Shown one piece after another: positions 318 through 59,598 of a stretch of 64,000 nucleotides of DNA. The position numbers and the translations under genes are program-made. The stretch covers positions 224,001 through 288,000 of the forward strand of contig CM000429.1 of assembly GCA_000165345.1 (NCBI GenBank). The letters run 5' to 3'. The notes beneath the pieces were generated by a model. The model had not been told where the DNA came from. It ran no database searches and worked only from the letters and a program-made list of their open reading frames with translations. Positions within the stretch are counted from its first letter, which is position 1. Each line of letters opens with the position of its first letter.

Positions 318-572
318 TAAAGAAAATCAGCTGAAAGTGGAAGAAGAATAGCTTTTTTTTCCCCTCCACTCAAAAAATAATTTTATCATTATTACGTGTC
401 TCCTGCAAATCGCCTATACCGGCATTCATGCAGAAATCTTTGCACATGCAAAAAAAAAAAGTTGCACATGTGGACAACAAAACACAAAAATATAATTATT
501 GGGGCTCGCCCATCATAATCTACGATAAACTAGTAATCTTAAAGAAATTTTCATTTTTATTTCTTAAAAAGA

Positions 573-7976: not shown

Positions 7977-9158
7977 AAAAAAAGTTGTCCCAAGAACGAT
8001 TTGTCAAATCAGTTCAGAGACTACATTAACTCTCTCATTCAACCGAACCTTATTTGAGCCTCTTTATCCATATACTATTATTTTTAAAGGCCCTCTGTAC
8101 CTTTAGCTATTTAGCTTCTTATTATCTTCCTACCTGACGAAAAAAATTCCGGCTGTAACTCTCTCAGAGAAAGTTCGCGCAATTATCTTCAATCTTCTAT
8201 TGTACTTTCAACTTATTTCGGAAATTTGTCTTTTCAATTCTTTATTTTCTTCTACTTTTCCGAAGTAACCTAGCTATTTCCTTGTAAATTAAACCTTTTC
8301 CACCATAATTTGCCCGCCTAAATGATCAATTTTTAAAAAATTTAATATTAAGCCACAGCTTTAAAACTTGAATGACTAGAGCCTGTTTTGACCTAAAGTA
8401 TAAAGTTTTTGCAAATTCTGTTAATTTGTGCTTTTTAATGGAATTTTACCTTTATTCGGTTCTAAGTTTTACTTTCAAAACACCATTTAGTATTATTGTC
8501 TTTATTCATGCAATAAACTTTATTGAGTGGTTTAAATTGGGGGAGCTATCAGTATTTGAAAGCTTATTTTATTTACCGGCATTTGCATGTTATCCACTCT
8601 GCATGGCTTGCATACTATTTCTGGCATTTGCATGCAAGCCGGTATTCAGACTATTACTCCCCAAATTGTTAATTATTACTTTTTTTTAGGCAATGCGAAA
8701 GCAAACTTTAGATTGGTTGATAAACTTGCTACTGTCTTATCATTATTATTATTACTATTATTATTGCTTCTATTAGTGAACTAGTTTGGCTAAATGCGAT
8801 AATAGAAATTCTATTATAATCAGGTTAGCTATTAAAAAAATAGTATCCCAAAAAATTCCAGGTAAAATTCAAACCTTTCTGGTTGAAATTCTAACACCTA
8901 TTTATTTCTAAAGGGTTCGTTAACTTGACAAAATTTTTCAAATATCGACTTTTTAATTAAACTGACGTAAAAATAAAACACACCCAAAAGTACCTTACTA
9001 AGGGTTACAAAATATCAAATTAGTACAAAATTTCTTAAAATGGCTTTCGTTTCGATATAGTTCATTATTTTCTTGTTCAAATATTAAAAAAATTTTCGCC
9101 ACAAATTAATATTTTACTTTAAGAATAACTTATAATTCAACCCTACCCACTCACGTGA

Positions 9159-13057: not shown

Positions 13058-13096
13058 ATTCCCGCCAAAACGGTTTAATTAGTTAATTGCATGCAT
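13058..13096. promoter_or_regulatory. E2F-like ATTCCCGCCAAAA (reverse orientation) plus TTGCATGCAT, upstream of ANP32
   Basis: Motifs at 13058..13070 and 13087..13096, about 620 bp upstream of the ATG at 13710. Confidence 0.4.
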
Positions 13097-16435: not shown

Positions 16436-17893
16436 TTGCCAGAAAAAATGGCATCTATCAAAATATTTAAAAGTTTACCATTCAACTTCTTGCTACTGTT
16501 TACATTACTGGTTTTTAGTATTGGAGTGGTATCGGTAAAATCCAATGATAACTCTGAAAAGCTTCCAGTTTTTGCATTAGTAGACATTTTTCATGTACCA
16601 CCAGAGTCCAGACAAAAATGTTCAACTATTTTAGGATGGCTTGCAACCAAATACCCAAACAATTATGTCCTAATGAGTGTTAGAAACATTATTTATCAAC
16701 TTGCACTTCCTCATAGTATGCTACAGGAAAATGCGGAAAAGGAGTTAATTGCAGCAATGGATAGTCTTCAAGGAACAATGTCGAATGTTTCTGGACTTGA
16801 ACCGGGTACTTATATAAGTATATTAACTTGTTCTGTGGATAATAAAGGAAGAACAATCCTTCAAAAAATGGTTGAGCATGGTCTAGTACAGGCTCTTTCT
16901 CACACTTTATCTCAAAAATTCTGGGTTGGAGCAAAACTGAACAAGTTATTAGATACAGAAGGAAATAATTTAGCACACTTGGCAGCAATGTCAGAAAATG
17001 ATGAACTGGTACATTATGTTCTTGGAATTATGTTTAAGTCAAATATTGTTGCTGAAATGTTGGAATCTCTTAATTCAAATGGTCAAAAGCCTATTGATAT
17101 TGCAATATTTCACAGAGACCAGCAAACTGTTGATACTATGAAGAATTTCTTCCGAGTAACTACTTTAGCAGAGAGGGAAGGATTTGTAGATGGTGTTGAG
17201 GTTATCGAGGATTCTGTAGCTTTAGCTGAGAAGGAAGCTGAGAATAAAAGGTTTAAAGAGTTTATTGAGAAAGAGGAAGATGCAGCAAGTAAAATCACTA
17301 ACGCTGAAATTACTAGGGATATTGAATATGCAAAACAAGATAATTATAAAGAAAGTATTAATGATGATATTTCAGACTCTCAAAGTCAGTCATTTGAGTC
17401 ATCTGCTGCTGAAGATTCGATGAATTCTAGCCAATTAACTCAAAGTCTTGAGGACGAGTTTAGTATTAAGCCTAGACTCAAAGATCAAGATATTCTACAA
17501 AACGAAAATAATCAGCAAGAACAAACATTCTCTGATGAAAACATTTATGATGAACAAATGGAAGATAGTATTATTAATGGAAATCAAAGATTTTCAGCGA
17601 TTAATAAGATAGAAAATACAGAGAAGGGAGATGAGCCTAGAGAAACTGAATTAAATTTCTCATCTCTAAGAGGAGCCGTTGAAAACAATATGGATCAAGA
17701 AACTCAACATCATCATTATCAAGATGACCAAGAAGAGATTAAACAAGTTAATAAAGAACCTCAAAGTAAATGGAATGCAACAGCTAAGGCTATTGTTGGT
17801 GCTTCTATTCTTGTAGGTACCTCTATACTTGCTGCAACCGTTGTGTTTATTGTCTGTAAAGGATATGGAAATAAGGAAGAAAATAGTTTTTAA
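16436..17893 (+). CDS. Hypothetical type I membrane protein: signal peptide, ankyrin-like segment, acidic Ser/Gln-rich region, C-terminal TM anchor
   Basis: The N-terminus FNFLLLFTLLVFSIGVVSV is hydrophobic. GNNLAHLAAMSENDELVHYVL is ankyrin-like. The C-terminal helix is AIVGASILVGTSILAATVVFIV, followed by a 12-aa tail. Confidence 0.55.
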   Translation: MPEKMASIKIFKSLPFNFLLLFTLLVFSIGVVSVKSNDNSEKLPVFALVDIFHVPPESRQKCSTILGWLATKYPNNYVLMSVRNIIYQLALPHSMLQENAEKELIAAMDSLQGTMSNVSGLEPGTYISILTCSVDNKGRTILQKMVEHGLVQALSHTLSQKFWVGAKLNKLLDTEGNNLAHLAAMSENDELVHYVLGIMFKSNIVAEMLESLNSNGQKPIDIAIFHRDQQTVDTMKNFFRVTTLAEREGFVDGVEVIEDSVALAEKEAENKRFKEFIEKEEDAASKITNAEITRDIEYAKQDNYKESINDDISDSQSQSFESSAAEDSMNSSQLTQSLEDEFSIKPRLKDQDILQNENNQQEQTFSDENIYDEQMEDSIINGNQRFSAINKIENTEKGDEPRETELNFSSLRGAVENNMDQETQHHHYQDDQEEIKQVNKEPQSKWNATAKAIVGASILVGTSILAATVVFIVCKGYGNKEENSF

Positions 17894-17925
17894 TTCACAT
17901 AGCTTGTTTTAATCCCAAATCTACC

Positions 17926-17944
17926 TGCATGCATGCATGCATGC
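17926..17944. repeat. (GCAT)n tandem array TGCATGCATGCATGCATGC in a convergent 3' intergenic region
   Basis: Direct read. It is 33 bp after the stop at 17893, between two convergent gene ends. Confidence 0.85.
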
Positions 17945-18136
17945 GGTACAAAGTAGTAATAATACTAGTTATTTAAGTTTACATTTAAAATTTTTGTAAA
18001 AAGTACAATAAGAAATAGTTTTGGTTTTTATTAACAAAACATTAAGCTAATATTAACATAAAAGAGTACTATTGGAAATGGTGGTAATAAGCAGAACTTC
18101 CATCTTTTCTCCAATTGAACAATTAGCACAAAGATC

Positions 18137-19594
18137 TCACACTGGAGGGTTAAGCAAACTTCTCCTCCAAGAGACAAAAATATCGGGATAAATGTTGTAG
18201 GTTCGCGCCCAAGCAACATTCTTATTGCTCTCGTAATCTCTTTTTCCTTCCTCATATTCTGTTTCTACTTCGTATTCCGTGGTTATTTCTTCTTCACTTT
18301 CTAAGGTACTTGAGACAGAAGTGTCAATATTAGCACAAATAGTTGTAGTATTGCATGAAGGAGCAGTAGTTGAGGCACTTGTATAGCTAATAGCATAAGA
18401 GTAATAATTTGGGTCTATATTAGCTTGGGAGTGAACTTCAAGCTTGCTTGTAATGCTGCTTCCACTGTTGCTATTGGAGCTGTTACCACTGTTATTGTAA
18501 TCTTTGATTGGCTTAAAAGGCTTAAACCCATCGTTTTTATTAGAGCCAGTTAAGTTCAAATTCTCAAGTTCTAGAGTTTTATTACAAGAATCCAAGCAAA
18601 ATTGTTCCACCCTTTCAGGCTTGAAGAACTTGTCATAAGAATCTAAGCCGTTTATAAGCTCTAAATAATGCCCAAAAAGAAACTGAGTTACTTTTGGTTT
18701 GACGGAAAAATCTATTTTATTTCCATATATGATGTACGAAGGAACTCCTTTAGGGAAAAAAGATTGAATTACTTGAAAAGCTTCCCCTTGTCTCTCCTCA
18801 GCATCACAGAGAGACATAAGTGGGAATTGTTTGGCCTCAAGAGATAAAACAATGTAAGGTTTCATCTTTGTCCAATCTAAAGAAATATGACAAAATGGAC
18901 ACTCAGCCCTACATTTATCCCAAATATCATTTTTTGCTGCCCAATATTCTACATGTAAAGCCTTTCTTAGACAATGGTAGCAACTTACGTGTTTGCATAC
19001 CTTAAATCTGGCCTTTGTACTTCTTGGTTTAAACTGATTACAAGAAAAGCAGAAAAAATGTCTTGGCCTCTTATTACCACTATTACAATTATTATTATTA
19101 TTATTGTTATTAATAGCACTAATATTTCCATTAATACTTTTAGTAAATCCATTTCCAGCTAACTCACACTCTTCTTCTATGTTACTAACAATATTTCCGT
19201 CATAGTGATTCTCTCCAAAGTAAGTGAATTTATTGGAAGTATTAATTGGATTCTGCTCAAATTCAGATTTTTTGTTTTGAATCATACCATAATTGTTATT
19301 GATCCATTCTGGTATTAGTGAATAAACTGTAGCAGTAATATTACCACCAATATTATTGATATGAAGCTCATCAACCTCAAATCTATCTGCAACAGAATCT
19401 TGAGCATTATTGGTATTTATATCGCTTTTTGCAGCTTTATAATTAAATGAATGAACTGAATTATATTGTTTCAAATTATTATTTGTGGTAAAGCTTTGCG
19501 AAAATTGTGTACCCTTTGAGTTATTTAATGCCGAAGATAATCCATTTCTTGGGTACGAAGGATATTTCGGTTTTTTTGGAATATAATAATTCAT
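18137..19594 (-). CDS. RING-finger (C3HC4-type) protein with Asn-rich low complexity. It is a paralog of the gene at 21793..24294.
   Basis: CFSCNQFKPRSTKARFKVCKHVSCYHCLRKAL...CPFCHISLDWTKMKPYIVL fits C-x2-C-x11-C-x-H-x2-C-x2-C-xn-C-x2-C. It shares clear similarity with the neighbouring gene on the opposite strand. Confidence 0.6.
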   Translation of the reverse strand: MNYYIPKKPKYPSYPRNGLSSALNNSKGTQFSQSFTTNNNLKQYNSVHSFNYKAAKSDINTNNAQDSVADRFEVDELHINNIGGNITATVYSLIPEWINNNYGMIQNKKSEFEQNPINTSNKFTYFGENHYDGNIVSNIEEECELAGNGFTKSINGNISAINNNNNNNNCNSGNKRPRHFFCFSCNQFKPRSTKARFKVCKHVSCYHCLRKALHVEYWAAKNDIWDKCRAECPFCHISLDWTKMKPYIVLSLEAKQFPLMSLCDAEERQGEAFQVIQSFFPKGVPSYIIYGNKIDFSVKPKVTQFLFGHYLELINGLDSYDKFFKPERVEQFCLDSCNKTLELENLNLTGSNKNDGFKPFKPIKDYNNSGNSSNSNSGSSITSKLEVHSQANIDPNYYSYAISYTSASTTAPSCNTTTICANIDTSVSSTLESEEEITTEYEVETEYEEGKRDYESNKNVAWARTYNIYPDIFVSWRRSLLNPPV

Positions 19595-20241
19595 TTGACC
19601 TTCTATTTGACCTGAATTCTATAATATATAAATATATATTTACATTTATACCAATGTTAATTTTCATGCAAATAACACATATATAAATGAAATCTTTCCT
19701 TATTTACCTGCTTTAGCTTTATTTTCTGAGTTAAATATTCTTTCTCTTCAAATTACTAGTTTCATTAAAAAATTATTAACCTGCGAAACTTCAATTCAAT
19801 ATATACCTTTCAAAATGATGATTAAAAATCTAATACAATTTCTTCATAACATTAAAAATTTTGTATTAAATCATTTCCAGATAGATTACATTTATTTATT
19901 GATTTTCTTCCAACTTATTAAATCCAATAATAAAAACCTTTGATAGCTAGGAAATATTTATATCCTTCAAGTAATACCTAGTTGATCAATTTAAATTCCT
20001 GGCCTTATTCCAATAAAATCAGCCTTAATAGTCTCTGAAAAATTTAGAGGTTTTTAAGAGTTAACTAGCATTCAGTTATTATTGATAATATTCTTTTTAT
20101 TGTTAAATTAATAGGAAAGCCTTTTTTGTAATGGTTAAAAGATCTACCACACAGATATCCTATACACCGCCAAGTTTCATGTTTTTTTAATCTTGTCTTA
20201 TCTTTAGATAGATAACTGATTTTATTTACTTCATGCTTTCA

Positions 20242-20256
20242 GATTTGGCGCCCAAA
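20242..20256. promoter_or_regulatory. Near-palindromic E2F-like site ATTTGGCGCCCAAAT inside the 2.2-kb gene-free gap
   Basis: Direct read. The adjacent sequence TCGGGATTTCCCC (20279..20292) resembles CGGGATTTCCCGCC at 48311..48324. Confidence 0.35.
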
Positions 20257-21792
20257 TCTTTATTATTTGTAATTATCCTCGGGATTTCCCCACATTAAGT
20301 ATCTTAATGATCTTGGCAGATGTTTTACCAGCTTAAATTAATTTCTTAAAAGTATAAATATTAAAGTAGCTTTAAACTTCATTTCATACGAGAAGCAAAA
20401 TATGACCAGCTGAATGCTCAATCTTAATAATATTTTTCTTTCTGAATAACTTACTTAGAGTATTTATTTTTTTTATATTTCTTTTTAAAAAAAACATGGA
20501 GGAAGGTTTTGTTTCTGATTTATCAATTGAAATACTATGTTGAAAATAATTTTATAATAATTAGAAAAAAATTTATAATTTATCCACATGAAAACGTTGA
20601 AATTTTTTCATCGCATGTAAAATTTTGTCCTCACTTGCAATGCCGGTATAGAATATTGCGTGCACACAAATTTTTAAATAAAATGAATAATAGACACGTG
20701 TACTAATAATAAATATCAATAAATTTATTGTAAATGTTAATTTTTATTAATAAAGTTTAGAATTCTTATTTATTTTTTTTTTAATAATATTTTATTGATG
20801 TAATGTGAATAATTGAAAACTATTATTTTTTTTCCGATAAAAAAATCCTGGTTTATTATAGAGAATATTATGATATATAATTTTCAATTATAAAATATAA
20901 AAAAGGATTGAATCAAATTTTTATTAATATTGTATTATTGCTCATTTTAGACGTGTTATTTCGATGAAATAAAATGGGGGATAGGCGTGGCAAGGCTCAA
21001 GAAAATGACTAGATAATAAGCATTAAATCTAATTTTATTAGAAATACTTTGTTTTTAAATACAACTTTAAATTAAATTCTTACCAAAACTCAAAAATTAT
21101 AGAACATTATTACTTCAATCTCAATTATTGTCATAAAATTAAAAAAAAAAAAAAAGAAAAAATAATAAATTGTCAGATTGCATGCAACTTCATTTTAATG
21201 TGGATAAATGCACACGCACTGCATGCATTTTGCAGATAATATTTTCGATAGCTAAGAATTAGATGAAATAAAAACAATTAAATAGATTTAAGAAATTAAA
21301 ATTTGATTAAAAAAATTAAAATTAACCATGGATAAAATATTTTTTTTAATTAATTTAACAAGTAATATACTTTTTTCAGAGGCTGTATAAGGTATATTTT
21401 TTGCATTAATTATGTACTTGTCTTCATACACACACGCTTTGTCTTCAGTTATTGACTGAAGATGCCCTTAATTGAGCATACTGCATTATCTGGTTATGAT
21501 GTTCGTTATACAGTAATTAGAGGTCGAAACAATAATTGTGAAAATAGAGGAATATACAAGATATCTAAAAGTAAAGATCGGAATTAAAGCATTGCAAAAG
21601 TATTAGATCAACGGTGAATGTGAATGGAGCTTTGAAAAATAAAAAGGAAGTAATTCAGCTCAATTTAAGTGATAAAAACGCGTCCTGTTGGGGTTAGTCA
21701 AAGTGATAACAATAGTAAAATATTTTGAAACATTCTAATAAAGAAAAAAAGGTTGAATACATTTTTTTAAATCTAAAAAATATTATAATAGA

Positions 21793-24294
<2,502 letters not shown>

Positions 24295-24848
24295 TAAATG
24301 ATATAAAAGATAATATAATTACTTTATTATTACAAAAGATTCAAAGGTAATGAAAATAATGTCATTAAATAAAGCATATTTATAGGATTAGTAATAGTTG
24401 TACTATGGTAAAGTAATCATATTATAATTTATTATTTTATGAGTAAATAAAGCATATGATGATTTTGGTAAGTGAGTGTGTATAATATCATAGAAGAATA
24501 TTTTGAAGAAAATCAGTTTTATTGTAAAAGATATAAATGAATATTGTCATTATTATTAATATAATAAAAACAAATAATTATATTATTACCAAATAACCAT
24601 ACAAATGAACTTATTTCTTTCCTATTTAACATTAATTTATTTATTTATTCAAAAACAAAAGGAAAAGAAAAAATAAATAATAAACAAATTTATTTAATAA
24701 ATTCCCTTATAATATACCTTTTCTCTATTTGGCAAGAAAAAAAGTGAGTTGAAATAATTATATTTTAATAATTTAAAGTTTGAAAGCAATCCCATATTCA
24801 AATATACGTGGTGCCGGTATATAAAAATTGACTAGGATGACATTTTTA

Positions 24849-24899
24849 TTTGGCGCATGTTAGTGCATGCACTTACACATGCACTGTTTTGGCGGGAAA
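24849..24899. promoter_or_regulatory. Promoter-type cluster: TTTGGCGC (24849..24856), GTGCATGCAC (24863..24872), TTTTGGCGGGAAA (24887..24899). It lies in a convergent 3' region.
   Basis: Direct read. The cluster is located between the stop of the + gene (24294) and the stop of the - gene (25453), so no annotated gene lies downstream. Confidence 0.4.
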
Positions 24900-25452
24900 T
24901 CTGGGACGGTAAGTGATTTGTTTATAGAAAATAAAATTATTAGAGTTATAGTCAAGAGGAAGTGATAGTGAATAAGTAGATGTAAATTTAAGAGAGAGAG
25001 AGAGAGAACGAGTGGATTCAGAGTAAATGAAGGTAAATTTTTCAAGAATTGATCAGAAAAAAAAAGAAACAAGTAAGAGTAAATCAATGGAAAATGAGGG
25101 GTGGTATGAAAGAACTAAGGTAGTGATAGAGAAGAGGTATGTTTAAGGAATTTATACAATAAATAGGCGAATAGGGAAAATGTTCGTGTATTCAAGGCGG
25201 CAAAGCCACACTTGTTTAGAATTGATTCTCTTAGACTTTTTGAGTTTATGTGAATAATTTTACTTCTGTATGACCTAAAATGATTATATTATTGTTTAAC
25301 AATATATAAAAAAAGTTTGTAAAAAAAAAGAATGACGTATTAAAATTATATAATTATTATAAAGGAAGCGAAAGAATCAAGTTAAGAATGTTTCTTGGCT
25401 TGTTTGTATTAAGGATTTGTGAGGTTTTTTCTTTTTTTTTTTCTCTTGATAT

Positions 25453-27309
25453 TTATTCCTCAAGGAGGAAATAATTTCCGGACATTTTTTGTTCTTTATC
25501 TTTGACAGAATCAAGTTTGTTAATTCTAGGTCTAAAGTTCATAGGATCTCTTCTGAAAGAGATTTCAAGGATTTTAAGGAATTTATTCATGCCAGTAACT
25601 AAATTCTCAGGTCTATGAGCAAAGCAATCAACACCAGGAGTACCGGTAAATAATATAACACGGTCAGCAAGATATGTAGCCATAATAAAGTCATGCTCAA
25701 CAACGAATGCAGTTTTTTGTGAGTGGAGAATAAATCTTTTAATGATTTTAGAGGCTGTAATTCTTTGCTCAGAGTCCAAGTAGGCCGATGGCTCATCAAT
25801 AAGATATATATCTGCTTTCTTACCAAGGGCAAGGATTAAAGCAACTCTTTGAAGCTCACCACCAGAAAGGAGCTTTACTTGTTGGTCAGAAATTCTCTCA
25901 ATATTGAATGGTTTTACAACTTCTGAGGTGAATTGAACATCCATAAATGAGTCTCTAATCTTCATCAAGAATAAATCTCGAACACTACCTTCAAATTTTG
26001 GTGATATAGTTTGTGGTTTGTATGATACATTAAATTCTGGCATTTGGTAATGATCTTTGTCAATTACATCAGAGTCATCAGGCTTGCTTACTCCTGCTAA
26101 AATCTTAATAAAGGTAGTTTTACCACATCCATTTTGTCCAAGCATAACAATAATCTCAGAATTTCCAAAATCTCCAGCTTCAGCTGAAAGCTTGAAAGAT
26201 CCCATTGTTTTTGTGAATCCTGGATACTTTACAAAATTAGATCTTTGCATCGCAATTTCATCTTGATCTACAATCTTGAAATTCAGTCCTTCTTCTCTAA
26301 ATCTCATATTTTCAGTAGGAACGAAACCATCCAGAAATATATTAATACCTTCTCTAACACTAAAAGGAGTAGTTACCACTCCATATACTCCAGGACTTCC
26401 CCATAAACAACAAACTAGATCTGATAAATAGTCTAATACTGAGAGATCATGCTCAACTACTATTACATAGTTTTCATGATTAAGTACATTTCTAATAACT
26501 TTAGCAGCATTAATTCTCTGCTTAATATCCAAATAGCTACTTGGCTCATCGTACATGTAAACCATACTAGCAACTGAAGTACTTACACATAAAGCAAATC
26601 TCTGTAGTTCTCCACCGCTTAATTCACCAACTTGTCTATCTAGTAAATGTCTTAGTTCAAGCTGATCTATTAGGGTTTCTGCAATAGACTTCTCATCTTT
26701 GGCATTAATAATATCACCAACTCTACCTTTAACTCTTTTTGGAATATGATCAACATATTGTGGTTTAATTACCGTCTTAAGCTCTCCATTCTGCATCTTG
26801 TTAAAGTATGTTTGCAATTCACTTCCTCTAAAATAAGCTATTACTTCTTTCCATTCTAACTCCTTTGTGTAATCTCCAAGATTTGGACGAAGCTTTCCAC
26901 TCAATATTTGCAAAGCTGTACTCTTTCCTATACCATTGGTACCAACTAATCCTAAAACTTGCCCTGGACGCGGTACAGGTAATCTATGTAATTTAAAGCT
27001 ATTCTTACCGTATCTATGTGTTGTGTCTTTACTCATATTCTTTGGCAAATTAATAATTGTAATTGCAGAATATGGACATTTCTTAACACAAATACCACAC
27101 CCAATACAGAGAGGTTCTGAAATGGAGGCAATTTTACTTGAAGAATCCACCTCTACACAAAGCTTTCCTGTTCTTACCACTGGACAGAACGATTTACATT
27201 CTTGTCGACAATTCTTAGGCTTACATCTATCCGCTTCCACAATAGCTATTCTCAAACGACTTTCATTTTCGTCCCCTCCGCCACTCTTTGTACTCTTTTT
27301 TGGTGGCAT
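25453..27309 (-). CDS. ABCE1: ABCE1 / RNase L inhibitor (Rli1): N-terminal Fe-S domain plus two ABC ATPase domains
   Basis: Ferredoxin-like cysteines ([11 protein letters not shown]...[12 protein letters not shown]). Two Walker A motifs ([18 protein letters not shown]). Two signature motifs LSGGELQR. 618 aa. Confidence 0.95.
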
Positions 27310-27924: not shown

Positions 27925-27961
27925 TGCATGCACAAAGGCTGAATGTGGATTTGGCGGGAAT
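27925..27961. promoter_or_regulatory. TGCATGCA (27925..27932) plus TTTGGCGGGAAT (27950..27961)
   Basis: Direct read. It lies between the transhydrogenase stop and the ABCE1 start. Confidence 0.4.
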
Positions 27962-28085: not shown

Positions 28086-31000
28086 TTAGGATGTAAAAAG
28101 AGTAAGCATTTTGTTTGTGACGTAGAATCCACCAAAAGTATTGATAGAGGCCAAAAATGTAGAGAACATGGACATTAAGGTAGTATATGTTACAGTTTGG
28201 TTCCCATATTGCATCATACTACCAATGATGATTACTCCAGAAAGAGCATTAGTTACTGACATTAAAGGTGTATGTAGTTTAGGATCCACATCCCATACAC
28301 AGTAATATCCCAACATGGTTGAAATGATAAAGGAAAAGATATTTTGGATCTGAATTGTAGTCATTGTGAGTCCTAATACTGTGAAGAAAAGAGTAGCAAG
28401 TATTACTCCAGCATAAAAGTTTACTCCTCCATTCAATTGCTTATCAAAGTTTTTAAATTCTTTCATGACTTTTTGTAAATACCCATCGATTTCAGTTTTT
28501 GAGCAAAAAACAGAAGTTTTACTTGTGGTTGTATCTTCATCCTTGATAGAAATGAGAGTTGACTGCTTTGAAATATTTTCAAGAAGACTCTTCTTTTCTA
28601 ACATTTCTTGGTTTTCGTGCTTCTCTTGATTTTGTTCAGTAAAAGGTCTCCAAAGCATCTTATTTTCATGAGCAACACACATTTTTGAAATGATTTCATT
28701 GTTCAAATCACATTTAAACCTATCAGATGTTGGCCCTAATTCACTAATTAAAGATAATAAGTTTCCAGAAAACAATTCACTGCTTTGTAATGGCATTGAA
28801 AATACATAGTTACATTTTCCAATAATTGTTGTTCCTGATTGAACATCAGAGAATGTTCTGTCTTTCTGGGTTAATTCACAGTTACCTCCAAATTCTGAGC
28901 AAAGATCTACAATAACTGATCCACTCTTCATCTTTCTTACAGCTTCTTTTGTAATCAAAATTGGGCATTCCTCACCAGGTTTACATGCTGATGTGATTAC
29001 AATATCTGAGATACACAAATACTTTTCAATTAAATCCCTCTGCTTTTTCAATATTTCCTCTTTTCTGAGAGATTCTCCCTCACTTGGGACTTGGATAAAC
29101 CTTGCTCCACAGCTTTCTGCTTCTTCCTTTGAAGTAGATCGTGAATCCATTGCAAACACTTTTGTTCCCATACTTTTTGCTGTAGCAATGGCCTGTAGAC
29201 CAGCAACACCTGCTCCTATGACTAATACTGTTGACTCTTCAACATTACCCGCTGCACTGGAAATTGATTTACTAATTCTTGGAAGATAATTAAAAGCATC
29301 AACTACTGCTCTATATCCAGAAATTGTGCTTGTTGTAGTTCTAATATCCATAGTTTGAGCACGAGAAGTTCTTGGAACTTCATCCAAAGCTATCACAGTT
29401 ACTCCATTCTTTGTTAAGCTTGCTAGTAGTTGATCTTGGCTGTTCTCCTTATCTTGGTACTGACTTATATGCATGTTACAAATTAAAAACTGTCCTTGTT
29501 TCATGCACTTTGCTTCCTTCTCACTTGGTCTAGCCATCTTGATCACTACATCACATTCCTTGATTAACTCCTCAATATTTTTATATACAAGAGCTCCACT
29601 TCTCATATATATCTCCTCTGAGAAATATTTGGACTGGAATGATGAAGTTAAAACATCTCTGGAAATTGCTACTTCATATCCCTTTTCTCTAAACTTATAC
29701 ACTTTAGAAGGAGGTATCGGGAATAATAAAGTTTTATCTTGTTCTGAAACTATTGGTAAAAGAGCAATTTTTTTTGAACCTTTGTTAGCACTCATAGATA
29801 CTTTCTCTGTCTCTGTTTCTGCTCCACCGGCTTTCTTGCTCCTAGAACTAACATTTCCTGAAGTCTTGGATGATTTTCTTTGCTTTGAAGAAAGTAAAGC
29901 TGTCGTAACCTCATCAGTATCTTCAACTTCTTCTATCTCTTCTGTTACCCTTGAATCTATATATTGCCTTGGAACAAATCCTGCACATCCTTTTAATATC
30001 TTATATACTTGTTGAAGAGTTTCTCTTGAATCACCAAGTAACATTCTGGTTCTTTCACATGTAAAGAGTTCATTTTCAATGCATGCATATCCATATGCTA
30101 AGGATCTTTTTGAAACTACGACTTGTTTTGCTTTCCAAACATTTATTACTGGCATTCCTGAAATCTTACTTTGAGGGTCCAAAGCTGCAGGATTAACTAT
30201 ATCATTAGCTCCTACCACTAATACCAAATCATACTCGTGCATGCAATTGTTCACAGCATCCATCTCTTTAACAATTCTGCTTGGTACTCCTGATTCAGCA
30301 AGTAAAACATTCATATGGCCTGGCATTCTTCCAGCCACTGGATGAATTCCAATTTCTACTATTGTACTTCTAGACTCTAATTCTTTAATTATATCAGAAA
30401 TTATATCTTGACATTTACTTACTGCCATACCATATCCTGGTACTATAAGTATCTTTGACGATTCAGCTAATATCTCAGCAGTTTCTTTTGAACTTGTAGT
30501 ATAACATTTTGTATCTCCTACCATCTTTTCTGTCTCTTCCTGATCAAATCCTCCAAGAAGAACTGAAACAAAGTCTCTATTCATTCCTTTACACATTATA
30601 TATGAAAGTATTGCACCACTTGAACCAATTAAAGCTCCACTTATAATTAAGAGACTATTGTCCAAAAGAAATCCTGTAATAGCCGTAGACCAACCACTGT
30701 AGCTATTTAACATACTTATTATTACTGGCATGTCAGCTCCTCCAATACTTATAATCATAAATATCCCAAATAAAGCTGAAAGAATCATTCCACAATGTAA
30801 GTTGGTTGTTATTACTAACTCGTTATTGGATACACAAAATGATAATCCTGTCATACATATTGAAAAAAGTAAAATTGAAAGTGATACATTCTTTAATGGT
30901 ATCTTTACACTCTTACTTGGAATAATATCATCCAACTTCAATGCTGCAATGACCGAACCAACAAAAGTTATCATACCCATAACACCTCCTACAAATAATT

Positions 31001-31529
31001 CCATTCTTCTTAAGACATAGATTCCTTCCTTCATCCCAATAGAAGAATAGAAATAAGAATATGATACAAATAATGCTGCCAATCCAACAAGACTGTGAAA
31101 TATCGCAACCAATTGTGGCATTTTTATTAATTGAGTTTTATCTGCAATATAAACACCAACAGCTCCTGATACTATTGTTGCCAAAAAGAATACAAAGTAG
31201 TGATTTCCAAAACCTTCTTCTGATAACGATACCAATATTGCTACCATCATTCCTACAAACCCTACTATATTACTTCTATATGCAGTCTTTTCAGATGATA
31301 ACCCTTTAATGCAATAAATAAAGCATAAAGCTGCAAAAAATTGGCCTGCCATTGTCAAAGACCCTGAATTACTTGTTTGATAAATCTCTGAGAGTCCCAA
31401 AAACAAGCTTTTACCACCTTCCTCCATTAACTTTCCTTGTAGTCTTGCATCCACACCATTAAGTGCAAAAATCACTAATAATACCACTGAAAATACTAAT
31501 AATCCTAATTTCATACTTAATTTCCTCAT
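28086..31529 (-). CDS. pntBA-like: Proton-translocating NAD(P) transhydrogenase, single-chain fusion in beta-then-alpha order (TM + dIII, then dI + TM)
   Basis: 1147 aa. The N-terminal half has multi-TM and NADP(H)-binding dIII motifs (GYGMAVSKCQ, VEIGIHPVAGRMPGHMNVLLAE, VVGANDIVNPAA). The C-terminal half has alanine-dehydrogenase-like dI (VLVIGAGVAGLQAIATAKSMG), followed by more TM helices. Confidence 0.9.
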   Translation of the reverse strand: MRKLSMKLGLLVFSVVLLVIFALNGVDARLQGKLMEEGGKSLFLGLSEIYQTSNSGSLTMAGQFFAALCFIYCIKGLSSEKTAYRSNIVGFVGMMVAILVSLSEEGFGNHYFVFFLATIVSGAVGVYIADKTQLIKMPQLVAIFHSLVGLAALFVSYSYFYSSIGMKEGIYVLRRMELFVGGVMGMITFVGSVIAALKLDDIIPSKSVKIPLKNVSLSILLFSICMTGLSFCVSNNELVITTNLHCGMILSALFGIFMIISIGGADMPVIISMLNSYSGWSTAITGFLLDNSLLIISGALIGSSGAILSYIMCKGMNRDFVSVLLGGFDQEETEKMVGDTKCYTTSSKETAEILAESSKILIVPGYGMAVSKCQDIISDIIKELESRSTIVEIGIHPVAGRMPGHMNVLLAESGVPSRIVKEMDAVNNCMHEYDLVLVVGANDIVNPAALDPQSKISGMPVINVWKAKQVVVSKRSLAYGYACIENELFTCERTRMLLGDSRETLQQVYKILKGCAGFVPRQYIDSRVTEEIEEVEDTDEVTTALLSSKQRKSSKTSGNVSSRSKKAGGAETETEKVSMSANKGSKKIALLPIVSEQDKTLLFPIPPSKVYKFREKGYEVAISRDVLTSSFQSKYFSEEIYMRSGALVYKNIEELIKECDVVIKMARPSEKEAKCMKQGQFLICNMHISQYQDKENSQDQLLASLTKNGVTVIALDEVPRTSRAQTMDIRTTTSTISGYRAVVDAFNYLPRISKSISSAAGNVEESTVLVIGAGVAGLQAIATAKSMGTKVFAMDSRSTSKEEAESCGARFIQVPSEGESLRKEEILKKQRDLIEKYLCISDIVITSACKPGEECPILITKEAVRKMKSGSVIVDLCSEFGGNCELTQKDRTFSDVQSGTTIIGKCNYVFSMPLQSSELFSGNLLSLISELGPTSDRFKCDLNNEIISKMCVAHENKMLWRPFTEQNQEKHENQEMLEKKSLLENISKQSTLISIKDEDTTTSKTSVFCSKTEIDGYLQKVMKEFKNFDKQLNGGVNFYAGVILATLFFTVLGLTMTTIQIQNIFSFIISTMLGYYCVWDVDPKLHTPLMSVTNALSGVIIIGSMMQYGNQTVTYTTLMSMFSTFLASINTFGGFYVTNKMLTLFTS

Positions 31530-31666: not shown

Positions 31667-31808
31667 AAAACATTCCGGTATATAAACTAATAATTATTTG
31701 AAAGAGAGGAAATAAAGTTAAAATTGAGAGTTGTTAATATATATATTAACAATAAAAAGAAAGAATTGAGATAATTATTATATAATCCTTTTAGTAATAA
31801 TTAAAAGT

Positions 31809-34799: not shown

Positions 34800-35847
34800 A
34801 TGGAATACAAAAACAAAAAGTTTGTAGTATTTCCAGATACAAATACTGGCTTGGAAAGAAACTTAACTATAATTACTTTACCTCATCCTAGTGTTAGCAC
34901 ACTCTGCGAATATTTGTTTGACACAGTTAATAATGAGGTATATGAAATTTTTGAATTGTCAGAGAGATCTAGTGGGATAAAGCCATCTGCATTTTTTGGA
35001 AATGATTGTATTTCAAAATTAGAACTTTGTGGAGCAGTAAATGTCGACACTTTTTTCTTTTTAATTTCAGCTTTAGTTTTTGCCAGAAATAAAAAGTATG
35101 TAAATAAAGAACTTTCTCAAGTTGTTATATATTATATTAGTAATCTAAAGCTAGAATTGGAACAGAGTGATTTTGACTTATTTGATGAGGTTAAGGATGG
35201 CATTTTAGAACTGTTTCAGAAATTTCTTTTAGATACCAAATTAATTGAAAAGATTGAAAAAGTTTGTGATATTTCATTAGGTAAGTTATAATTTTAATAA
35301 TATTCTTCTTTTACTCATTTTTTTTATGTGTTTAGAAGGAAAAAATTCAACAAATAGTGAAAACCAACCTAAAAAATTCACTCTAAACGATGAAAAACTT
35401 TTAAATTATCTCTCTGAAAGAGTTATTAAAACTGCAAAAATTTCTACTGAAAGAGGTCTTATACTTAATGATTATTATAGCGAACAAGGAACAAATTCTC
35501 CACATACATCACTTTCCCAAGTTCCCGCCCAGGAAATTGCATGCGATATGTTATTTGCATGTATTCCAAAATCTCTGACAAATGTCGGAGAGAGACTAAA
35601 GAGAAGATTTGGAGAGTATAAGACAACAAATGACTCAGGAAACACTGATAAAAATAATGCTTCTTTAAATAAAAACCCAAAGAATCAATATATTGGAGTT
35701 AAAAGAGGTATTAATAAGAGAGCTCCTCCTATTATTACAAAGTCTACACCATCCAAAAGAGCGCCACCACACAAATCATTAAAACTAAATGTAAATAATG
35801 ACGTGTCAAATGGTAATATATTAGAATTCTTAAAAAAAAAAAAATAG
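34800..35847 (+). CDS. Hypothetical protein encoded by two exons (34800..35280 and 35336..35847) joined across a 55-nt intron
   Basis: GTAAGT is at 35281 and the acceptor TTTAG ends at 35335. The reading frame is preserved across the junction (...CDISL-E-GKNSTNSEN...). The ORF track lists this as two separate ORFs (34800..35291 and 35326..35847). Confidence 0.6.
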
Positions 35848-42798: not shown

Positions 42799-43264
42799 GC
42801 TTCGATCATAATAAAAGAGCATGTAAGGATAGTAACAGGAAATTATTGATTTTGTTAGGTTTTAAAGAATTTCAGAATGCTTATGTAGGCGGATAATCGG
42901 TATTTAGTTTTTTTTGAAAGTTAAAACTCAAAAGTCGATTATTTTAACATAAGAAATTATTGTTAAGCCTGTAAGTATTTTTTTTGGGAGAGATTATAAG
43001 ACTAAAAGAGCGTCGTATAGATGAGATTAAAAGATATTATTTAGCTTGTAATGAGATAAATTAATTTACAGTATCTTGTTTATAATTTTCAAAAGCTTTA
43101 TCTTTTAATATTCCGACTTTTTTAACTTTAATAAAAATATTGACTTTAAATCAAAAGGCGGGTATTCCAACCTGTACTAAATATATATTTAGATAGAGAA
43201 AAAATCAAGAAAAAAAAGTATTGAAAAAGAAAGTCAAATAAATAAAGAAATTAATGAGTTCCAA

Positions 43265-43534
43265 ATGACTAAAATAACTAGAGAAGAACGGGAGAGAAGA
43301 GAGAAAGTGAATAGAGAAATTACAAGGCTTGCTCAACAGGAGAAATGGCTGGAATCATTTAGACCTAAGAGAGAAGAGAAAAACCGAGTAAAGGTTCAAA
43401 TCAAGAAAAAAGCTATCAAGATAGTAAAAGAAAAGGTTTCAAAAAAGAAAAAGAAGCTAAATCCAAAACTCCTTCAGGAACTTAATAACGAGATTCAAAG
43501 AACAATGACTTTATATAAAAATAAGGCTAAATAA
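43265..43534 (+). CDS. Small Lys/Glu/Arg-rich coiled-coil protein (hypothetical)
   Basis: 89-aa ORF preceded by an E2F-like site AAAGGCGGGTA at 43154..43164. Highly charged. Could be a genuine small nucleolar or ribosome-associated protein. Confidence 0.4.
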   Translation: MTKITREERERREKVNREITRLAQQEKWLESFRPKREEKNRVKVQIKKKAIKIVKEKVSKKKKKLNPKLLQELNNEIQRTMTLYKNKAK

Positions 43535-44198: not shown

Positions 44199-44289
<91 letters not shown>

Positions 44290-44505
44290 ATATTAACATG
44301 TAAGTTTAATTAGAATAAACGCGAGTTAATATTGGGGATATTTACAAAGGTGAAACGAAATTTATTAAAAAAATGCAACAGGGAAATTACTGGGACTTTT
44401 GTAAGGACACAGAGTAAGTTTCTATTTGTAGAAATTCATGTTGTGAGTTGAAGTTCATTATCTACTTATAGGGGTAAATTTTTTATTGAAAGTGGTAAAA
44501 ACCAT

Positions 44506-48314: not shown

Positions 48315-48382
48315 ATTTCCCGCCAATTGCTTTGGCTGCATGCATTTTTTATATATGCAAAATTGCATGCAACGCATGCAGA
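48315..48382. promoter_or_regulatory. Motif cluster: ATTTCCCGCC (48315..48323), CTGCATGCAT (48337..48346), TTGCATGCAA (48363..48372) and CGCATGCAG (48374..48382)
   Basis: Direct read, 220-290 bp upstream of the ATG at 48604. Confidence 0.5.
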
Positions 48383-59574: not shown

Positions 59575-59598
59575 TGCATGCATGCATGCATGCATGCA
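59575..59598. repeat. (GCAT)6 tandem array TGCATGCATGCATGCATGCATGCA in a divergent promoter
   Basis: Direct read, 87 bp upstream of the ATG at 59685. Confidence 0.9.

What the first reader, a model, noticed from the sequence alone, without database searches (positions are those of the whole stretch)
24849..25300. Promoter-type motif cluster in a convergent 3' region followed by a purine-rich ORF-free stretch: candidate lncRNA
TTTGGCGC, GTGCATGCAC and TTTTGGCGGGAAA lie within 50 bp at 24849..24899, in a region that is downstream of both flanking genes (stops at 24294 and 25453). The next 350 bp on the + strand are strongly GA-rich, with (AG)8 at 24991..25006 and GTGATAGTG repeats, and have no ORF. 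A compact promoter with no protein gene to serve suggests a non-coding or antisense transcript, possibly antisense to the ABCE1 3' end.
Basis: inference. Interest (0 to 1): 0.5.

Follow-up and report, generated by a model that had tools for sequence, protein, structure and literature searches.

The report
Conserved lncRNA promoter between convergent genes
This is a conserved cluster of known Cryptosporidium parvum promoter motifs in the gap between two convergent genes, most likely starting non-coding antisense transcripts of a kind already catalogued at this locus, so it is real but fairly ordinary.

Summary
The window is Cryptosporidium parvum chromosome 1.

**Motifs.** They are the two known C. 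parvum promoter words, E2F/DP1 and ApiAP2 GCATGC. Both are far commoner here than chance predicts and are concentrated in non-coding DNA. The GGCGGGAA core is invariant in five species and as well conserved as the E2F sites in ABCE1's own promoter.

**Purine-rich stretch.** It is real (75% purine, 4% C at 24942-25141). It is non-coding: stops in all frames, frameshifting indels, and no homologues of its 39-aa ORF. Its composition, not its sequence, is kept in six species. It has no Rfam match, and the adjacent conserved block shows no conserved fold.

**Splice-like signals.** GTAAGT, GTATGT and TTTAG are conserved on the + strand.

**Literature.** Li et al. 2021 list lncRNAs antisense to ABCE1 (Cp_lnc_383) and to CPATCC_0003240, inferred to be the 833-aa gene (Cp_lnc_384).

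**Verdict.** Most likely a promoter, probably bidirectional, for these lncRNAs. The start site, direction and splicing could not be checked. None of the three motif sequences I searched for is in Li et al.'s upstream-motif table. Known kind, low novelty.

The parts
24807..24827 (.). Conserved block CGTGGTGCCGGTATATAAAAA, combining a CCGGTATA word with a TATA-like box.
   Evidence: It is near-identical in chipmunk genotype I and differs at 3 positions in C. meleagridis; it is partly kept in C. ubiquitum. GTGCCGGTATA with up to 2 mismatches occurs 12 times against 3.6 expected, and several of those sites are intergenic. It shares the 9-mer TATACCGGC with one instance of Li et al.'s lncRNA-upstream motif 4.
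24849..24856 (.). TTTGGCGC, an E2F/DP1-like word.
   Evidence: The position is confirmed. The word occurs 8 times against 0.5 expected. It is kept and expanded in C. meleagridis but lost in chipmunk genotype I and C. ubiquitum.
24863..24872 (.). GTGCATGCAC, which matches the ApiAP2_1 motif BGCATGCAH.
   Evidence: The position is confirmed. TGCATGCA occurs 33 times against 1.05 expected, and 30 of the 33 are non-coding. GCATGC is present at about the same place in 4 of 5 species.
24887..24899 (.). TTTTGGCGGGAAA, which reads TTCCCGCCAAA on the minus strand. This equals the best-scoring E2F/DP1 instance in Li et al.'s table.
   Evidence: The GGCGGGAA core is invariant in C. parvum, C. meleagridis, chipmunk genotype I, C. 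ubiquitum and C. canis. It is the strongest conservation peak of the whole gap (3.1-3.35 of 4), equal to the E2F sites in ABCE1's own promoter. TTGGCGGGAA occurs 5 times against 0.04 expected.
24900..24920 (+). Conserved TCTGGGACGGTAAGTGATTTG containing GTAAGT (24909-24914), a candidate 5' splice site.
   Evidence: GGACGGTAAGTGATTTG is identical in three species, and GGACGGTAAGTGA is also kept in C. ubiquitum. C. canis has GCAAGA instead. [quoted passage not shown] Actual splicing was not tested.
24942..25141 (+). Purine-rich, C-poor, ORF-free tract that includes (AG)8 at 24991-25006.
   Evidence: It is 75% purine with 4% C. The same composition (69-73% purine, 4-9% C) is found in four other species, and 80% in C. 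felis, while length varies from 96 to 216 nt. Sequence identity to C. meleagridis is 85%, with indels of 5, 1, 5, 5, 2 and 5 nt. Stops occur in all frames.
25135..25167 (+). Conserved AGGTATGTTTAAGGAATTTATACAATAAATAGG, holding a second candidate 5' splice site (GTATGT, 25137-25142) and an AATAAA.
   Evidence: It is a conservation peak of 3.05 of 4. The larger block 25135-25260 is 96% identical to C. meleagridis, against 89% for the gap as a whole. It forms the right arm of the longest inverted repeat in the gap.
25211..25236 (+). Conserved CTTGTTTAG|AATTGATTCTCTTAGAC, a candidate 3' splice site with AG at 25218-25219.
   Evidence: TTTAG is invariant in all five aligned species and is also present in C. 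felis. It has the same form as the 3' end of a real 55-nt intron in this window, GTGTTTAG|A at 35281-35335.
25331..25360 (.). Conserved AATGACGTATTAAAATTATATAATTATTAT, about 95-120 nt beyond the ABCE1 stop.
   Evidence: It is a conservation peak of 3.0-3.15 of 4. Its role is undecided: an ABCE1 3'-end signal, a poly(A) signal (ATTAAA) for the plus-strand RNA, or a TATA-like start element for Cp_lnc_383.
24688..24724 (-). Left arm of an inverted repeat. On the minus strand it reads AGAAAAGGTATATTATAAGGGAATTTATTAAATAAAT, mirroring 25128-25164.
   Evidence: It is the longest inverted repeat in the gap, at 37 nt and 73% complementary. Its GGAATTTATTA core is shared with C. meleagridis and chipmunk genotype I, with a degraded version in C. 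ubiquitum. Similar matches are common in AT-rich DNA, so this is weak evidence.
25453..27309 (-). ABCE1 / RNase L inhibitor coding sequence (CPATCC_000323), the sense gene of the published lncRNA Cp_lnc_383.
   Evidence: identical to the C. parvum Iowa II protein.
21793..24294 (+). Gene for an 833-aa low-complexity protein, inferred to be CPATCC_000324, the sense gene of the published lncRNA Cp_lnc_384.
   Evidence: The identity is inferred from its neighbours CPATCC_000323 and CPATCC_000325. Its C-terminus and stop codon are conserved as far as C. felis.

Best explanation
The block at 24807-24920 is a conserved RNA polymerase II promoter module of the usual C. parvum type. It combines a CCGGTATA/TATA-like box, an E2F/DP1 site, an ApiAP2 GCATGC site and a second, invariant E2F/DP1 site. 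It lies midway between two convergent protein genes and serves no protein gene. It most likely starts non-coding transcription, probably in both directions.

Rightward, it would give a purine-rich, probably spliced, non-coding RNA that runs into the 3' end of ABCE1 in antisense. This would be the catalogued Cp_lnc_383, or its unrecorded 5' part. Leftward, it would give an RNA antisense to the 833-aa gene, the catalogued Cp_lnc_384.

**Shown:** motif identity, over-representation, conservation, lack of coding capacity, and the published existence of both antisense lncRNAs.

**Inferred:** that transcription starts at this module, its direction, the splicing, and any regulatory effect on ABCE1 or the 833-aa gene.
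For: - The motifs are at the stated coordinates.
- The words are 8- to 125-fold over-represented and concentrated in non-coding DNA.
- They equal the E2F/DP1 and ApiAP2_1 motifs that Li et al. found upstream of lncRNAs; TTCCCGCCAAA is their best-scoring instance.
- The same composite, TGCATGCA followed 12-22 nt later by TTGGCGGGAA, recurs at three other intergenic sites in the window.
- The GGCGGGAA core is invariant in five species and as conserved as ABCE1's own promoter E2F sites.
- GTAAGT, GTATGT and TTTAG are conserved on the plus strand. GTAAGT begins 84% of Cryptosporidium introns, and a real in-window intron has the same ends.
- The purine-rich composition is conserved in six species while the sequence drifts.
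- In coding genes of this window the purine-rich strand is always the sense strand.
- Li et al. list Cp_lnc_383 antisense to CPATCC_0003230, which is ABCE1. They also list Cp_lnc_384 antisense to CPATCC_0003240, which I infer to be the 833-aa gene.
- Other convergent gaps in the window also carry these motifs: 3548 and 17926-17941.
Against: - I had no RNA data, so no start site was seen.
- None of the three cluster-derived 11-mers I searched for is in Li et al.'s table of motifs within 100 bp upstream of lncRNA 5' ends. No 2021 transcript model is therefore tied to the cluster by that table.
- Cp_lnc_383 correlates at r = 0.78 with the same-strand upstream gene, so it may partly be read-through.
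- A search of 5.8 billion predicted proteins for the ORF that the 25137-25219 splice would create found only the unspliced 39-aa form. This is weak negative evidence.
- C. canis and C. felis lack the GTAAGT donor.
- No such motifs are seen in C. bovis, C. andersoni or C. muris.
- Motif orientation alone favours the minus strand.
- The 'upstream/downstream gene' columns for Cp_lnc_384 do not fit the strand I infer for it.
Confidence: 0.55

Rival explanations
1. The module is a one-directional, minus-strand promoter. In this reading E2F and AP2 sites are followed by the TATA-like box (24827 down to 24818) and a start near 24790, giving only the RNA antisense to the 833-aa gene (Cp_lnc_384). The plus-strand purine-rich stretch would not be an independent transcript. 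Its splice-like signals would belong to a long 3' UTR or read-through of the 833-aa gene, or would be conserved for other reasons.
For: - In the four other TTGGCGGGAA sites the nearest protein gene sees TTCCCGCCAA, then TGCATGCA where present, on its sense strand. Applied here, that points to the minus strand.
- The conserved TATA-like block lies on that side.
- Cp_lnc_384 is the more abundant RNA (8.5-9.0 in oocysts and sporozoites) and peaks when E2F motifs dominate open chromatin.
- Cp_lnc_383 correlates with the same-strand 833-aa gene at r = 0.78.
Against: - The orientation rule rests on four sites with ambiguous gene assignment.
- Li et al. report TTCCCGCC sites in both orientations relative to lncRNAs.
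- The best-conserved sequence continues rightward from the E2F site into GTAAGT.
- The composition and splice-like signals on the plus strand would need a separate explanation.
- No cluster-derived motif sequence appears in Li's upstream table for any lncRNA, on this strand either.
Confidence: 0.2
2. The conserved E2F site and the polypurine/polypyrimidine tract form a non-promoter chromatin or 3'-end element between convergent genes. This could be a factor-bound boundary, or a pause or termination region that keeps the two converging polymerases apart, or part of the ABCE1 3' UTR. It would have no dedicated transcript.
For: - In C. felis the gap is only 189 bp yet keeps an E2F-like word, an 80% purine tract and TTTAG, so there the tract must overlap the 3' ends of the two mRNAs.
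- Composition rather than sequence is conserved.
- (AG)n and mirror purine tracts can form non-B DNA (general knowledge, not tested here).
Against: - The motif combination is the one seen at ordinary promoters in this window.
- Antisense lncRNAs to both flanking genes are published.
- The conserved GTAAGT and TTTAG have no role in this model.
Confidence: 0.12
3. The gap holds a missed small or multi-exon protein-coding gene, served by the promoter.
For: - There is a promoter-like module with splice-like signals on the same strand.
- A 39-aa ORF (25027-25146) is called as a gene in some public assemblies.
Against: - The 39-aa ORF has no homologue among 5.8 billion proteins except itself.
- Candidate start codons in the first exon run into stops in C. 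meleagridis and chipmunk genotype I (alignment).
- The tract has stops in all frames in most species.
- Indels against C. meleagridis are 5, 1, 5, 5, 2 and 5 nt, and substitutions show no three-base periodicity.
- The joined exons end in a stop after 10 codons.
Confidence: 0.03
4. The gap holds a small structured RNA gene (snRNA, snoRNA, RNase MRP or telomerase RNA), or the whole feature is a chance motif cluster.
For: The gap is unusually long for C. parvum: 1158 bp against a mean of 504 bp. It also contains conserved islands.
Against: - There is no Rfam match at gathering score in the window apart from a tRNA. Nothing appears in the gap at E up to 10 except a chance microRNA-like hit across the ABCE1 stop codon.
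- No tRNA is present.
- The consensus fold of the conserved 25130-25262 block has -0.7 kcal/mol and no compensatory pairs.
- A C-poor purine tract cannot form G-C helices.
- Chance is excluded by the shuffles and the cross-species conservation.
Confidence: 0.03

Closest known systems
C. parvum stage-specific antisense lncRNAs with E2F/DP1 and ApiAP2_1 upstream motifs (Li, Baptista, Sateriale, Striepen, Kissinger 2021, PMC7840661), specifically Cp_lnc_383 (CPATCC_0003233) and Cp_lnc_384 (CPATCC_0003243)
   Same: - It uses the same two motif types.
- It lies beyond the 3' end of the sense gene.
- It has no coding potential.
- The lncRNAs listed are antisense to exactly these two flanking genes.
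- A possible bidirectional promoter fits their proposal.
   Different: - The cluster lies 554-555 bp from each stop codon, not at the end of the coding sequence.
- None of the three cluster-derived motif sequences I searched for is in their upstream-motif table.
- The plus-strand RNA would carry one or two introns, whereas only 5 of their 396 lncRNAs are spliced.
- Their transcript coordinates could not be retrieved, because the stored FASTA file is cut.
E2F-centred open-chromatin promoters of C. parvum sporozoites, more than half annotated as bidirectional (bioRxiv 10.1101/2025.01.17.633476)
   Same: An E2F motif is the dominant element, and bidirectional use is plausible.
   Different: That study found no AP2 motifs in sporozoite ATAC-seq peaks, whereas this module has a GCATGC site. 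I do not know whether this gap is accessible.
Ordinary C. parvum protein-gene promoters in this window that carry the composite TGCATGCA, a 12-22 nt spacer, then TTGGCGGGAA (13059-13095, 27925-27960, 48317-48344)
   Same: The word pair, its order and its spacing match. The 48317 site even shares GGCGGGAAATC..GGACG with this one.
   Different: Those sites have a protein-coding start codon 280-650 bp away on one side. This one has only gene 3' ends on both sides.
Divergent or antisense non-coding transcription from compact-genome promoters, such as the Giardia bidirectional promoters cited by Li et al., and the 5'-splice-site (U1) effect on promoter directionality in animals
   Same: A promoter fires into neighbouring genes in antisense, and a strong 5' splice site lies just downstream of the likely start on one side.
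   Different: This comparison rests on my general knowledge. Nothing about U1-dependent directionality is known for Cryptosporidium, and none of it was tested here.

Membership tests
C. parvum E2F/DP1 promoter motif ([C/G]GCGC[G/C]; Li et al. motif 1, TTSSCGCCWAA) | Sequence match to the motif | tested here: met
   TTTCCCGCCAAAA on the minus strand (24899 down to 24887) contains TTCCCGCCAAA, their best-scoring instance. TTTGGCGC at 24849 is a second, weaker match.
C. parvum E2F/DP1 promoter motif ([C/G]GCGC[G/C]; Li et al. motif 1, TTSSCGCCWAA) | Non-random occurrence, concentrated in non-coding upstream DNA | tested here: met
   5 observed against 0.04 expected, and 8 against 0.5. Density is 0.28 per kb in coding DNA against 0.7-2.6 per kb in intergenic DNA.
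C. parvum E2F/DP1 promoter motif ([C/G]GCGC[G/C]; Li et al. motif 1, TTSSCGCCWAA) | Conservation at the orthologous position | tested here: met
   GGCGGGAA is invariant in 5 species. The conservation score equals that of the ABCE1-promoter E2F sites. It is absent in C. bovis, C. andersoni and C. muris.
C. parvum E2F/DP1 promoter motif ([C/G]GCGC[G/C]; Li et al. motif 1, TTSSCGCCWAA) | Lies within about 100 bp upstream of a mapped transcript 5' end, in open chromatin, bound by E2F/DP | not testable with these tools
   No RNA-seq, ATAC-seq or ChIP data were reachable. The three cluster-derived 11-mers I searched for are not among the upstream motifs listed for the 396 lncRNAs of 2021.
ApiAP2_1 motif (BGCATGCAH) | Sequence match and non-random, intergenic distribution | tested here: met
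   GTGCATGCAC fits the pattern B-GCATGCA-H. TGCATGCA occurs 33 times against 1.05 expected, and 30 of the 33 are non-coding. GCATGC is kept in 4 of 5 species.
C. parvum antisense lncRNA (as defined by Li et al. 2021) | Transcript longer than 200 nt on the strand opposite an annotated mRNA | not testable with these tools
   The published table lists Cp_lnc_383 antisense to CPATCC_0003230, which is ABCE1. Its coordinates were not retrievable, so I could not show that it includes 24900-25300.
C. parvum antisense lncRNA (as defined by Li et al. 2021) | Low coding potential | tested here: met
   The longest plus-strand ORF is 39 aa and has no homologues. Indels shift the frame and stops occur in all frames.
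C. parvum antisense lncRNA (as defined by Li et al. 2021) | Independent of the upstream same-strand mRNA (not read-through) | tested here: inconclusive
   A promoter-like module lies 555 bp downstream of the 833-aa gene's stop. However, Cp_lnc_383 correlates at r = 0.78 with that gene.
Spliceosomal intron (Cryptosporidium type) | GTAAGT-type 5' end and a YAG 3' end at a plausible distance | tested here: met
   GTAAGT is at 24909, GTATGT at 25137 and TTTAG at 25215-25219. Candidate introns are 37, 83 or 311 nt long. 84% of Cryptosporidium introns start with GTAAGT. A real 55-nt intron at 35281-35335 has the same ends.
Spliceosomal intron (Cryptosporidium type) | Both ends conserved in orthologues | tested here: inconclusive
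   The donors are kept in 4 of 5 aligned species, and TTTAG in 5 of 5 plus C. felis. C. canis and C. felis lack GTAAGT.
Spliceosomal intron (Cryptosporidium type) | Spliced junction seen in RNA | not testable with these tools
   The only proxy found nothing. This was a search for the junction-spanning ORF among proteins predicted from public assemblies, which include assemblies of public sequencing runs.
Known structured RNA families (Rfam) or a conserved RNA fold | Covariance-model match or a conserved secondary structure | tested here: not met
   Searches found nothing. The consensus fold has -0.7 kcal/mol with 0 compensatory pairs.
Protein-coding gene | A conserved open reading frame or homologues | tested here: not met

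The most novel reading that the evidence does not exclude
The plus-strand product is an independent, E2F-driven, spliced intergenic lncRNA kept across the intestinal Cryptosporidium clade (C. parvum to C. canis and C. felis). Its working part would be a purine-rich, almost C-free exon conserved in composition rather than sequence. Such an exon could act as an unstructured protein- or nucleic-acid-binding platform, for example by forming a triplex or pairing with the CT-rich antisense RNAs. It would come from a bidirectional promoter that also launches the antisense RNA of the neighbouring gene, coupling the regulation of ABCE1 and the 833-aa gene.
Probability: 0.2. Interest if true: 0.45.

Novelty: already known. 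Interest (0 to 1): 0.22.

Why it matters
How Cryptosporidium regulates its genes is poorly understood. E2F and AP2 motifs and widespread antisense lncRNAs are the main leads. This locus is a clean, conserved example of a promoter placed between two convergent genes. It offers concrete sites to mutate: the invariant GGCGGGAA, the GTAAGT, and the purine tract. Mutating them would test whether such lncRNAs regulate their sense genes, one of which, ABCE1, encodes the ribosome-recycling factor. It does not change what is known about the organism. At most it adds conservation and possible splicing to a lncRNA that is already catalogued.

Tried and rejected
1. **Rfam and tRNA scans.** Rfam at gathering score on the whole window, Rfam at E up to 10 on 24200-25600, and a tRNA scan found nothing relevant.

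2. **Li et al. lncRNA sequences.** I searched their lncRNA FASTA, in both the journal and bioRxiv versions, for sequences from the gap and from ABCE1 antisense. Both stored files are cut before Cp_lnc_383, so its coordinates stayed unknown.

3. **Using their upstream-motif table by lncRNA ID.** I rejected this because IDs differ between sheets. Cp_lnc_132 and Cp_lnc_378 change type between sheets, and the motif listed for Cp_lnc_386 is not in the window. Searching the table by motif sequence gave no hit.

4. **RNA-derived contigs.** Looking for them through the 39-aa ORF returned only genomic contigs. A homology search with it found only the unspliced form.

5. **Other supplements.** None were held for the small-RNA paper, the telomere-to-telomere assembly paper or the ATAC-seq/polycistron preprint. 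No paper mentions the gene IDs.

6. **Conserved RNA fold at 25130-25262.** None was found.

7. **Bacterial-type promoter and terminator scan.** It is not meaningful for a eukaryote and gave results close to the shuffles.

8. **The word AAGGAATTTAT, shared by the inverted-repeat arms.** It is not over-represented.

9. **Telomerase template, C/D-box and H/ACA features.** I looked by eye and found nothing convincing.

10. **Reading the lncRNA strands from the 'upstream/downstream gene' columns.** They fit Cp_lnc_383 on the plus strand but are inconsistent for Cp_lnc_384 and Cp_lnc_386, so I did not rely on them.
Full report
**Where we are.** The 618-aa ORF at 25453-27309 (-) is ABCE1/RNase L inhibitor. 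It is identical to the Cryptosporidium parvum Iowa II / IOWA-ATCC protein CPATCC_000323. The window matches C. parvum chromosome 1; window position x corresponds to CP029780.1 position x + 229477.
- The neighbouring genes are NAD(P) transhydrogenase (28086-31529 -, CPATCC_000322), a RING protein (18137-19594 -, CPATCC_000325) and a 481-aa protein (16448-17893 +, CPATCC_000326).
- The 833-aa low-complexity gene at 21793-24294 (+) is therefore inferred to be CPATCC_000324.
- IOWA-ATCC gene numbers run opposite to window coordinates. This fits the published remark that this assembly is not oriented like the 2004 reference.
- The gap between the two convergent stop codons is 1158 bp, more than twice the C. 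parvum mean of 504 bp.

- All three motifs and (AG)8 are at the stated coordinates.
- TTGGCGGGAA occurs 5 times in the window against 0.04 expected, TGCATGCA 33 against 1.05, and TTTGGCGC 8 against 0.5. No shuffle reached the observed counts.
- The words are concentrated in non-coding DNA. TGCATGCA runs at 0.07 per kb in coding sequence against about 1.4 per kb in intergenic sequence.
- They are the E2F/DP1 and ApiAP2_1 motifs of C. parvum. TTCCCGCCAAA, the minus-strand reading of 24888-24898, is the best-scoring E2F instance in Li et al.'s lncRNA-upstream table.
- The plus strand is 63% purine over 24900-25300. Over 24942-25141 it is 75% purine with 4% C, one of only two such intergenic tracts in the 64 kb.
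- The longest plus-strand ORF is 39 aa.
- Minor correction: GTGATAGTG occurs once, and only GTGATAG recurs.

**Conservation.** I fetched the syntenic ABCE1 loci of chipmunk genotype I and eight named Cryptosporidium species: C. meleagridis, C. ubiquitum, C. canis, C. felis, C. bovis, C. andersoni and C. muris. Gene order and the convergent arrangement are kept in all of them.
- In an alignment of C. parvum with C. meleagridis, chipmunk genotype I, C. ubiquitum and C. canis, GGCGGGAA is invariant. The block 24885-24924 is the best-conserved stretch of the whole gap, scoring 3.1-3.35 of 4 against about 2 for the AT-rich background.
- As a positive control, I applied the same measure to ABCE1's real upstream region. 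Its two E2F sites score 3.15-3.3.
- The other conserved islands are:
  - CGTGGTGCCGGTATATAAAAA (24807-24827)
  - AGGTATGTTTAAGGAATTTATACAATAAATAGG (25135-25167)
  - CTTGTTTAG|AATTG... (25211-25236)
  - AATGACGTATTAAAATTATATAATTATTAT (25331-25360)
  - a block at 24575-24606
- The upstream TTTGGCGC is lineage-specific.
- C. bovis, C. andersoni and C. muris show none of these words.

**Not coding and not a structured RNA.**
- Candidate start codons near the motifs hit stops in C. meleagridis and chipmunk genotype I.
- The purine tract has stops in all frames in most species and varies from 96 to 216 nt.
- Against C. meleagridis it is 85% identical, below the 90% seen at ABCE1 third codon positions. 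Its indels are 5, 1, 5, 5, 2 and 5 nt, and substitutions show no three-base periodicity.
- The 39-aa ORF has no relative among 5.8 billion proteins apart from itself.
- Rfam finds nothing in the gap.
- The conserved 25130-25262 block has no conserved fold.
- The composition, however, is kept: 69-73% purine and 4-9% C in five species. In C. felis the tract is 80% purine, even though the whole gap there has shrunk to 189 bp.

**Splice-like signals on the plus strand.**
- GTAAGT lies 10 nt after the invariant E2F core. It is identical, with its flanks, in C. parvum, C. meleagridis and chipmunk genotype I, and nearly so in C. ubiquitum.
- GTATGT at 25137 is kept in four species, and TTTAG at 25215-25219 in all five plus C. 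felis.
- A real 55-nt intron in this window (35281-35335) joins two ORFs in frame and has the ends AG|GTAAGT ... GTGTTTAG|A.
- Candidate introns here are 24909-24945 (37 nt), 25137-25219 (83 nt) or 24909-25219 (311 nt). None could be checked against RNA.

**What is published.** Li et al. 2021 (PMC7840661) catalogued 396 C. parvum lncRNAs, 92% of them antisense.
- These typically start near the 3' end of the sense gene. E2F/DP1 and ApiAP2_1 are the top upstream motifs, and the authors propose bidirectional promoters.
- Their expression table lists Cp_lnc_383 (CPATCC_0003233), antisense to CPATCC_0003230, which is ABCE1. Its normalised expression rises from about 5.3 in oocysts and sporozoites to 6.3 at 24 h and 7.8 at 48 h. 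Its upstream gene is CPATCC_0003240 and its downstream gene CPATCC_0003220, which fits the window's plus strand.
- The table also lists Cp_lnc_384 (CPATCC_0003243), antisense to CPATCC_0003240. It scores 8.5-9.0 in oocysts and sporozoites and falls later.
- So both flanking genes of this gap already have a catalogued antisense lncRNA.
- The next convergent gap to the left (17894-18136) carries (TGCA)n, and both of its genes also have listed antisense lncRNAs, Cp_lnc_385 and Cp_lnc_386.
- A later annotation counts 766 lncRNA genes.

**What I could not establish.**
- The stored lncRNA FASTA is cut before Cp_lnc_383, so its ends are unknown.
- The IDs in Li et al.'s motif sheet disagree with those in their expression sheet. 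I therefore searched that sheet by sequence. None of the three 11-mers I tried (AAGTGCATGCA, TAGTGCATGCA, CATGCGCCAAA) is listed. So no 2021 transcript model is tied to the cluster by that table.
- Cp_lnc_383 also correlates at r = 0.78 with the same-strand 833-aa gene, so read-through is possible.

**Direction.** The other four TTGGCGGGAA sites in the window are all intergenic. Three of them share the composite of TGCATGCA, a 12-22 nt spacer, then TTGGCGGGAA. The site at 48317 even shares GGCGGGAAATC..GGACG with this one.
- In each, the nearest protein gene reads TTCCCGCCAA, then TGCATGCA where present, on its own sense strand. By that analogy, the main direction here would be the minus strand, with the TATA-like box at 24827 down to 24818 and a start near 24790. 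That would be the Cp_lnc_384 side.
- The plus strand is supported instead by the conserved GTAAGT, GTATGT and TTTAG, by the conserved purine-rich composition, and by Cp_lnc_383. In this window's coding genes the purine-rich strand is always the sense strand.
- A bidirectional promoter reconciles both lines of evidence, and that is my preferred reading. Neither direction is demonstrated.

**Verdict.** Both the kind and, very probably, the transcripts themselves are already described. The modest additions here are conservation of the module across five aligned taxa of the intestinal clade (with the purine tract and TTTAG also in C. felis), the possible introns, and the composition-conserved purine tract.

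Noticed in passing
window 13059-13095, 27925-27960, 48317-48344 (also 24864-24898): A recurring composite promoter module: TGCATGCA, a 12-22 nt spacer, then TTGGCGGGAA, always intergenic. The 48317 copy shares the extended GGCGGGAAATC..GGACG with the finding. In every case the TGCATGCA-to-TTGGCGGGAA direction points at the 3' end of a neighbouring gene, and a protein-coding start lies on the other side.
   Followed up: partly
window 17926-17941: (TGCA)n, read as TGCATGCATGCATGCA, sits in the 243-bp gap between the convergent 481-aa and RING genes. Li et al. list antisense lncRNAs for both genes (Cp_lnc_385 and Cp_lnc_386). This parallels the finding. A similar (GCAT)n run lies at 59575-59598.
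   Followed up: partly
window 19595-21792: A 2.2-kb ORF-free gap lies between the divergent RING and 833-aa genes. It holds E2F words (20167, 20245), ATGCCGGTATA (20640) and TGCATGCA (21179, 21220). That is unusually long for this genome and may hold unannotated non-coding genes or long 5' UTRs.
   Followed up: no
window 43128-43394: The only other strongly purine-rich intergenic tract in the window (76% purine on the plus strand). It lies between two minus-strand genes and so is antisense to both. It may be another non-coding transcript.
   Followed up: no
window 44279-44306: A second case of TTGGCGGGAA followed within 11 nt by GTAAGT (TTGGCGGGAAcatattaacatGTAAGT), in a 1.55-kb divergent gap. 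The same pairing of an E2F site and a 5' splice site occurs at the finding.
   Followed up: no
window 34800-35847: Two adjacent ORFs of 163 and 173 aa are called as separate genes in public assemblies; the first has a weak Ydr279_N Pfam hit. A 55-nt GTAAGT...TTTAG intron (35281-35335) joins them in frame, so they are probably one gene.
   Followed up: partly
window 415-425, 20640-20650, 24811-24821, 31672-31682: The word (A/G)TGCCGGTATA or CCGGTATA recurs in non-coding DNA (12 matches with up to 2 mismatches, against 3.6 expected). One copy lies next to TGCATGCATGCA in the transhydrogenase promoter. It resembles Li et al.'s lncRNA-upstream motif 4 and may be a core-promoter element.
   Followed up: partly
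window 24688-24724 and 25128-25164: The longest inverted repeat of the gap flanks the motif cluster. Each outward-facing strand reads AG(A/G)AAAGGTAT.T..AAGG(G)AATTTAT..AATAAAT. Its significance in AT-rich DNA is doubtful.
   Followed up: partly
L010 (C. felis) 7855-8043: In C. felis the convergent gap has shrunk to 189 bp at 61% G+C. It still starts with TTTCCGCC, continues with an 80% purine tract, and contains CATTTTAG.
   Followed up: partly
Li et al. 2021 supplementary tables (PMC7840661): The lncRNA IDs in the upstream-motif sheet do not match those in the expression/context sheet. Cp_lnc_132 and Cp_lnc_378 change between antisense and intergenic, and the motif listed for Cp_lnc_386 is absent from its locus. 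The 'upstream/downstream gene' columns are also inconsistent with strand for Cp_lnc_384 and Cp_lnc_386.
   Followed up: partly
between window 31530 and 31808 (CPATCC_000321): Gene number CPATCC_000321 / 0003210 is missing both from the GenBank protein names and from Li et al.'s mRNA list. It would fall between the transhydrogenase and the 298-aa gene, and is possibly a non-coding or withdrawn model. Some assemblies call a 66-aa ORF there.
   Followed up: no
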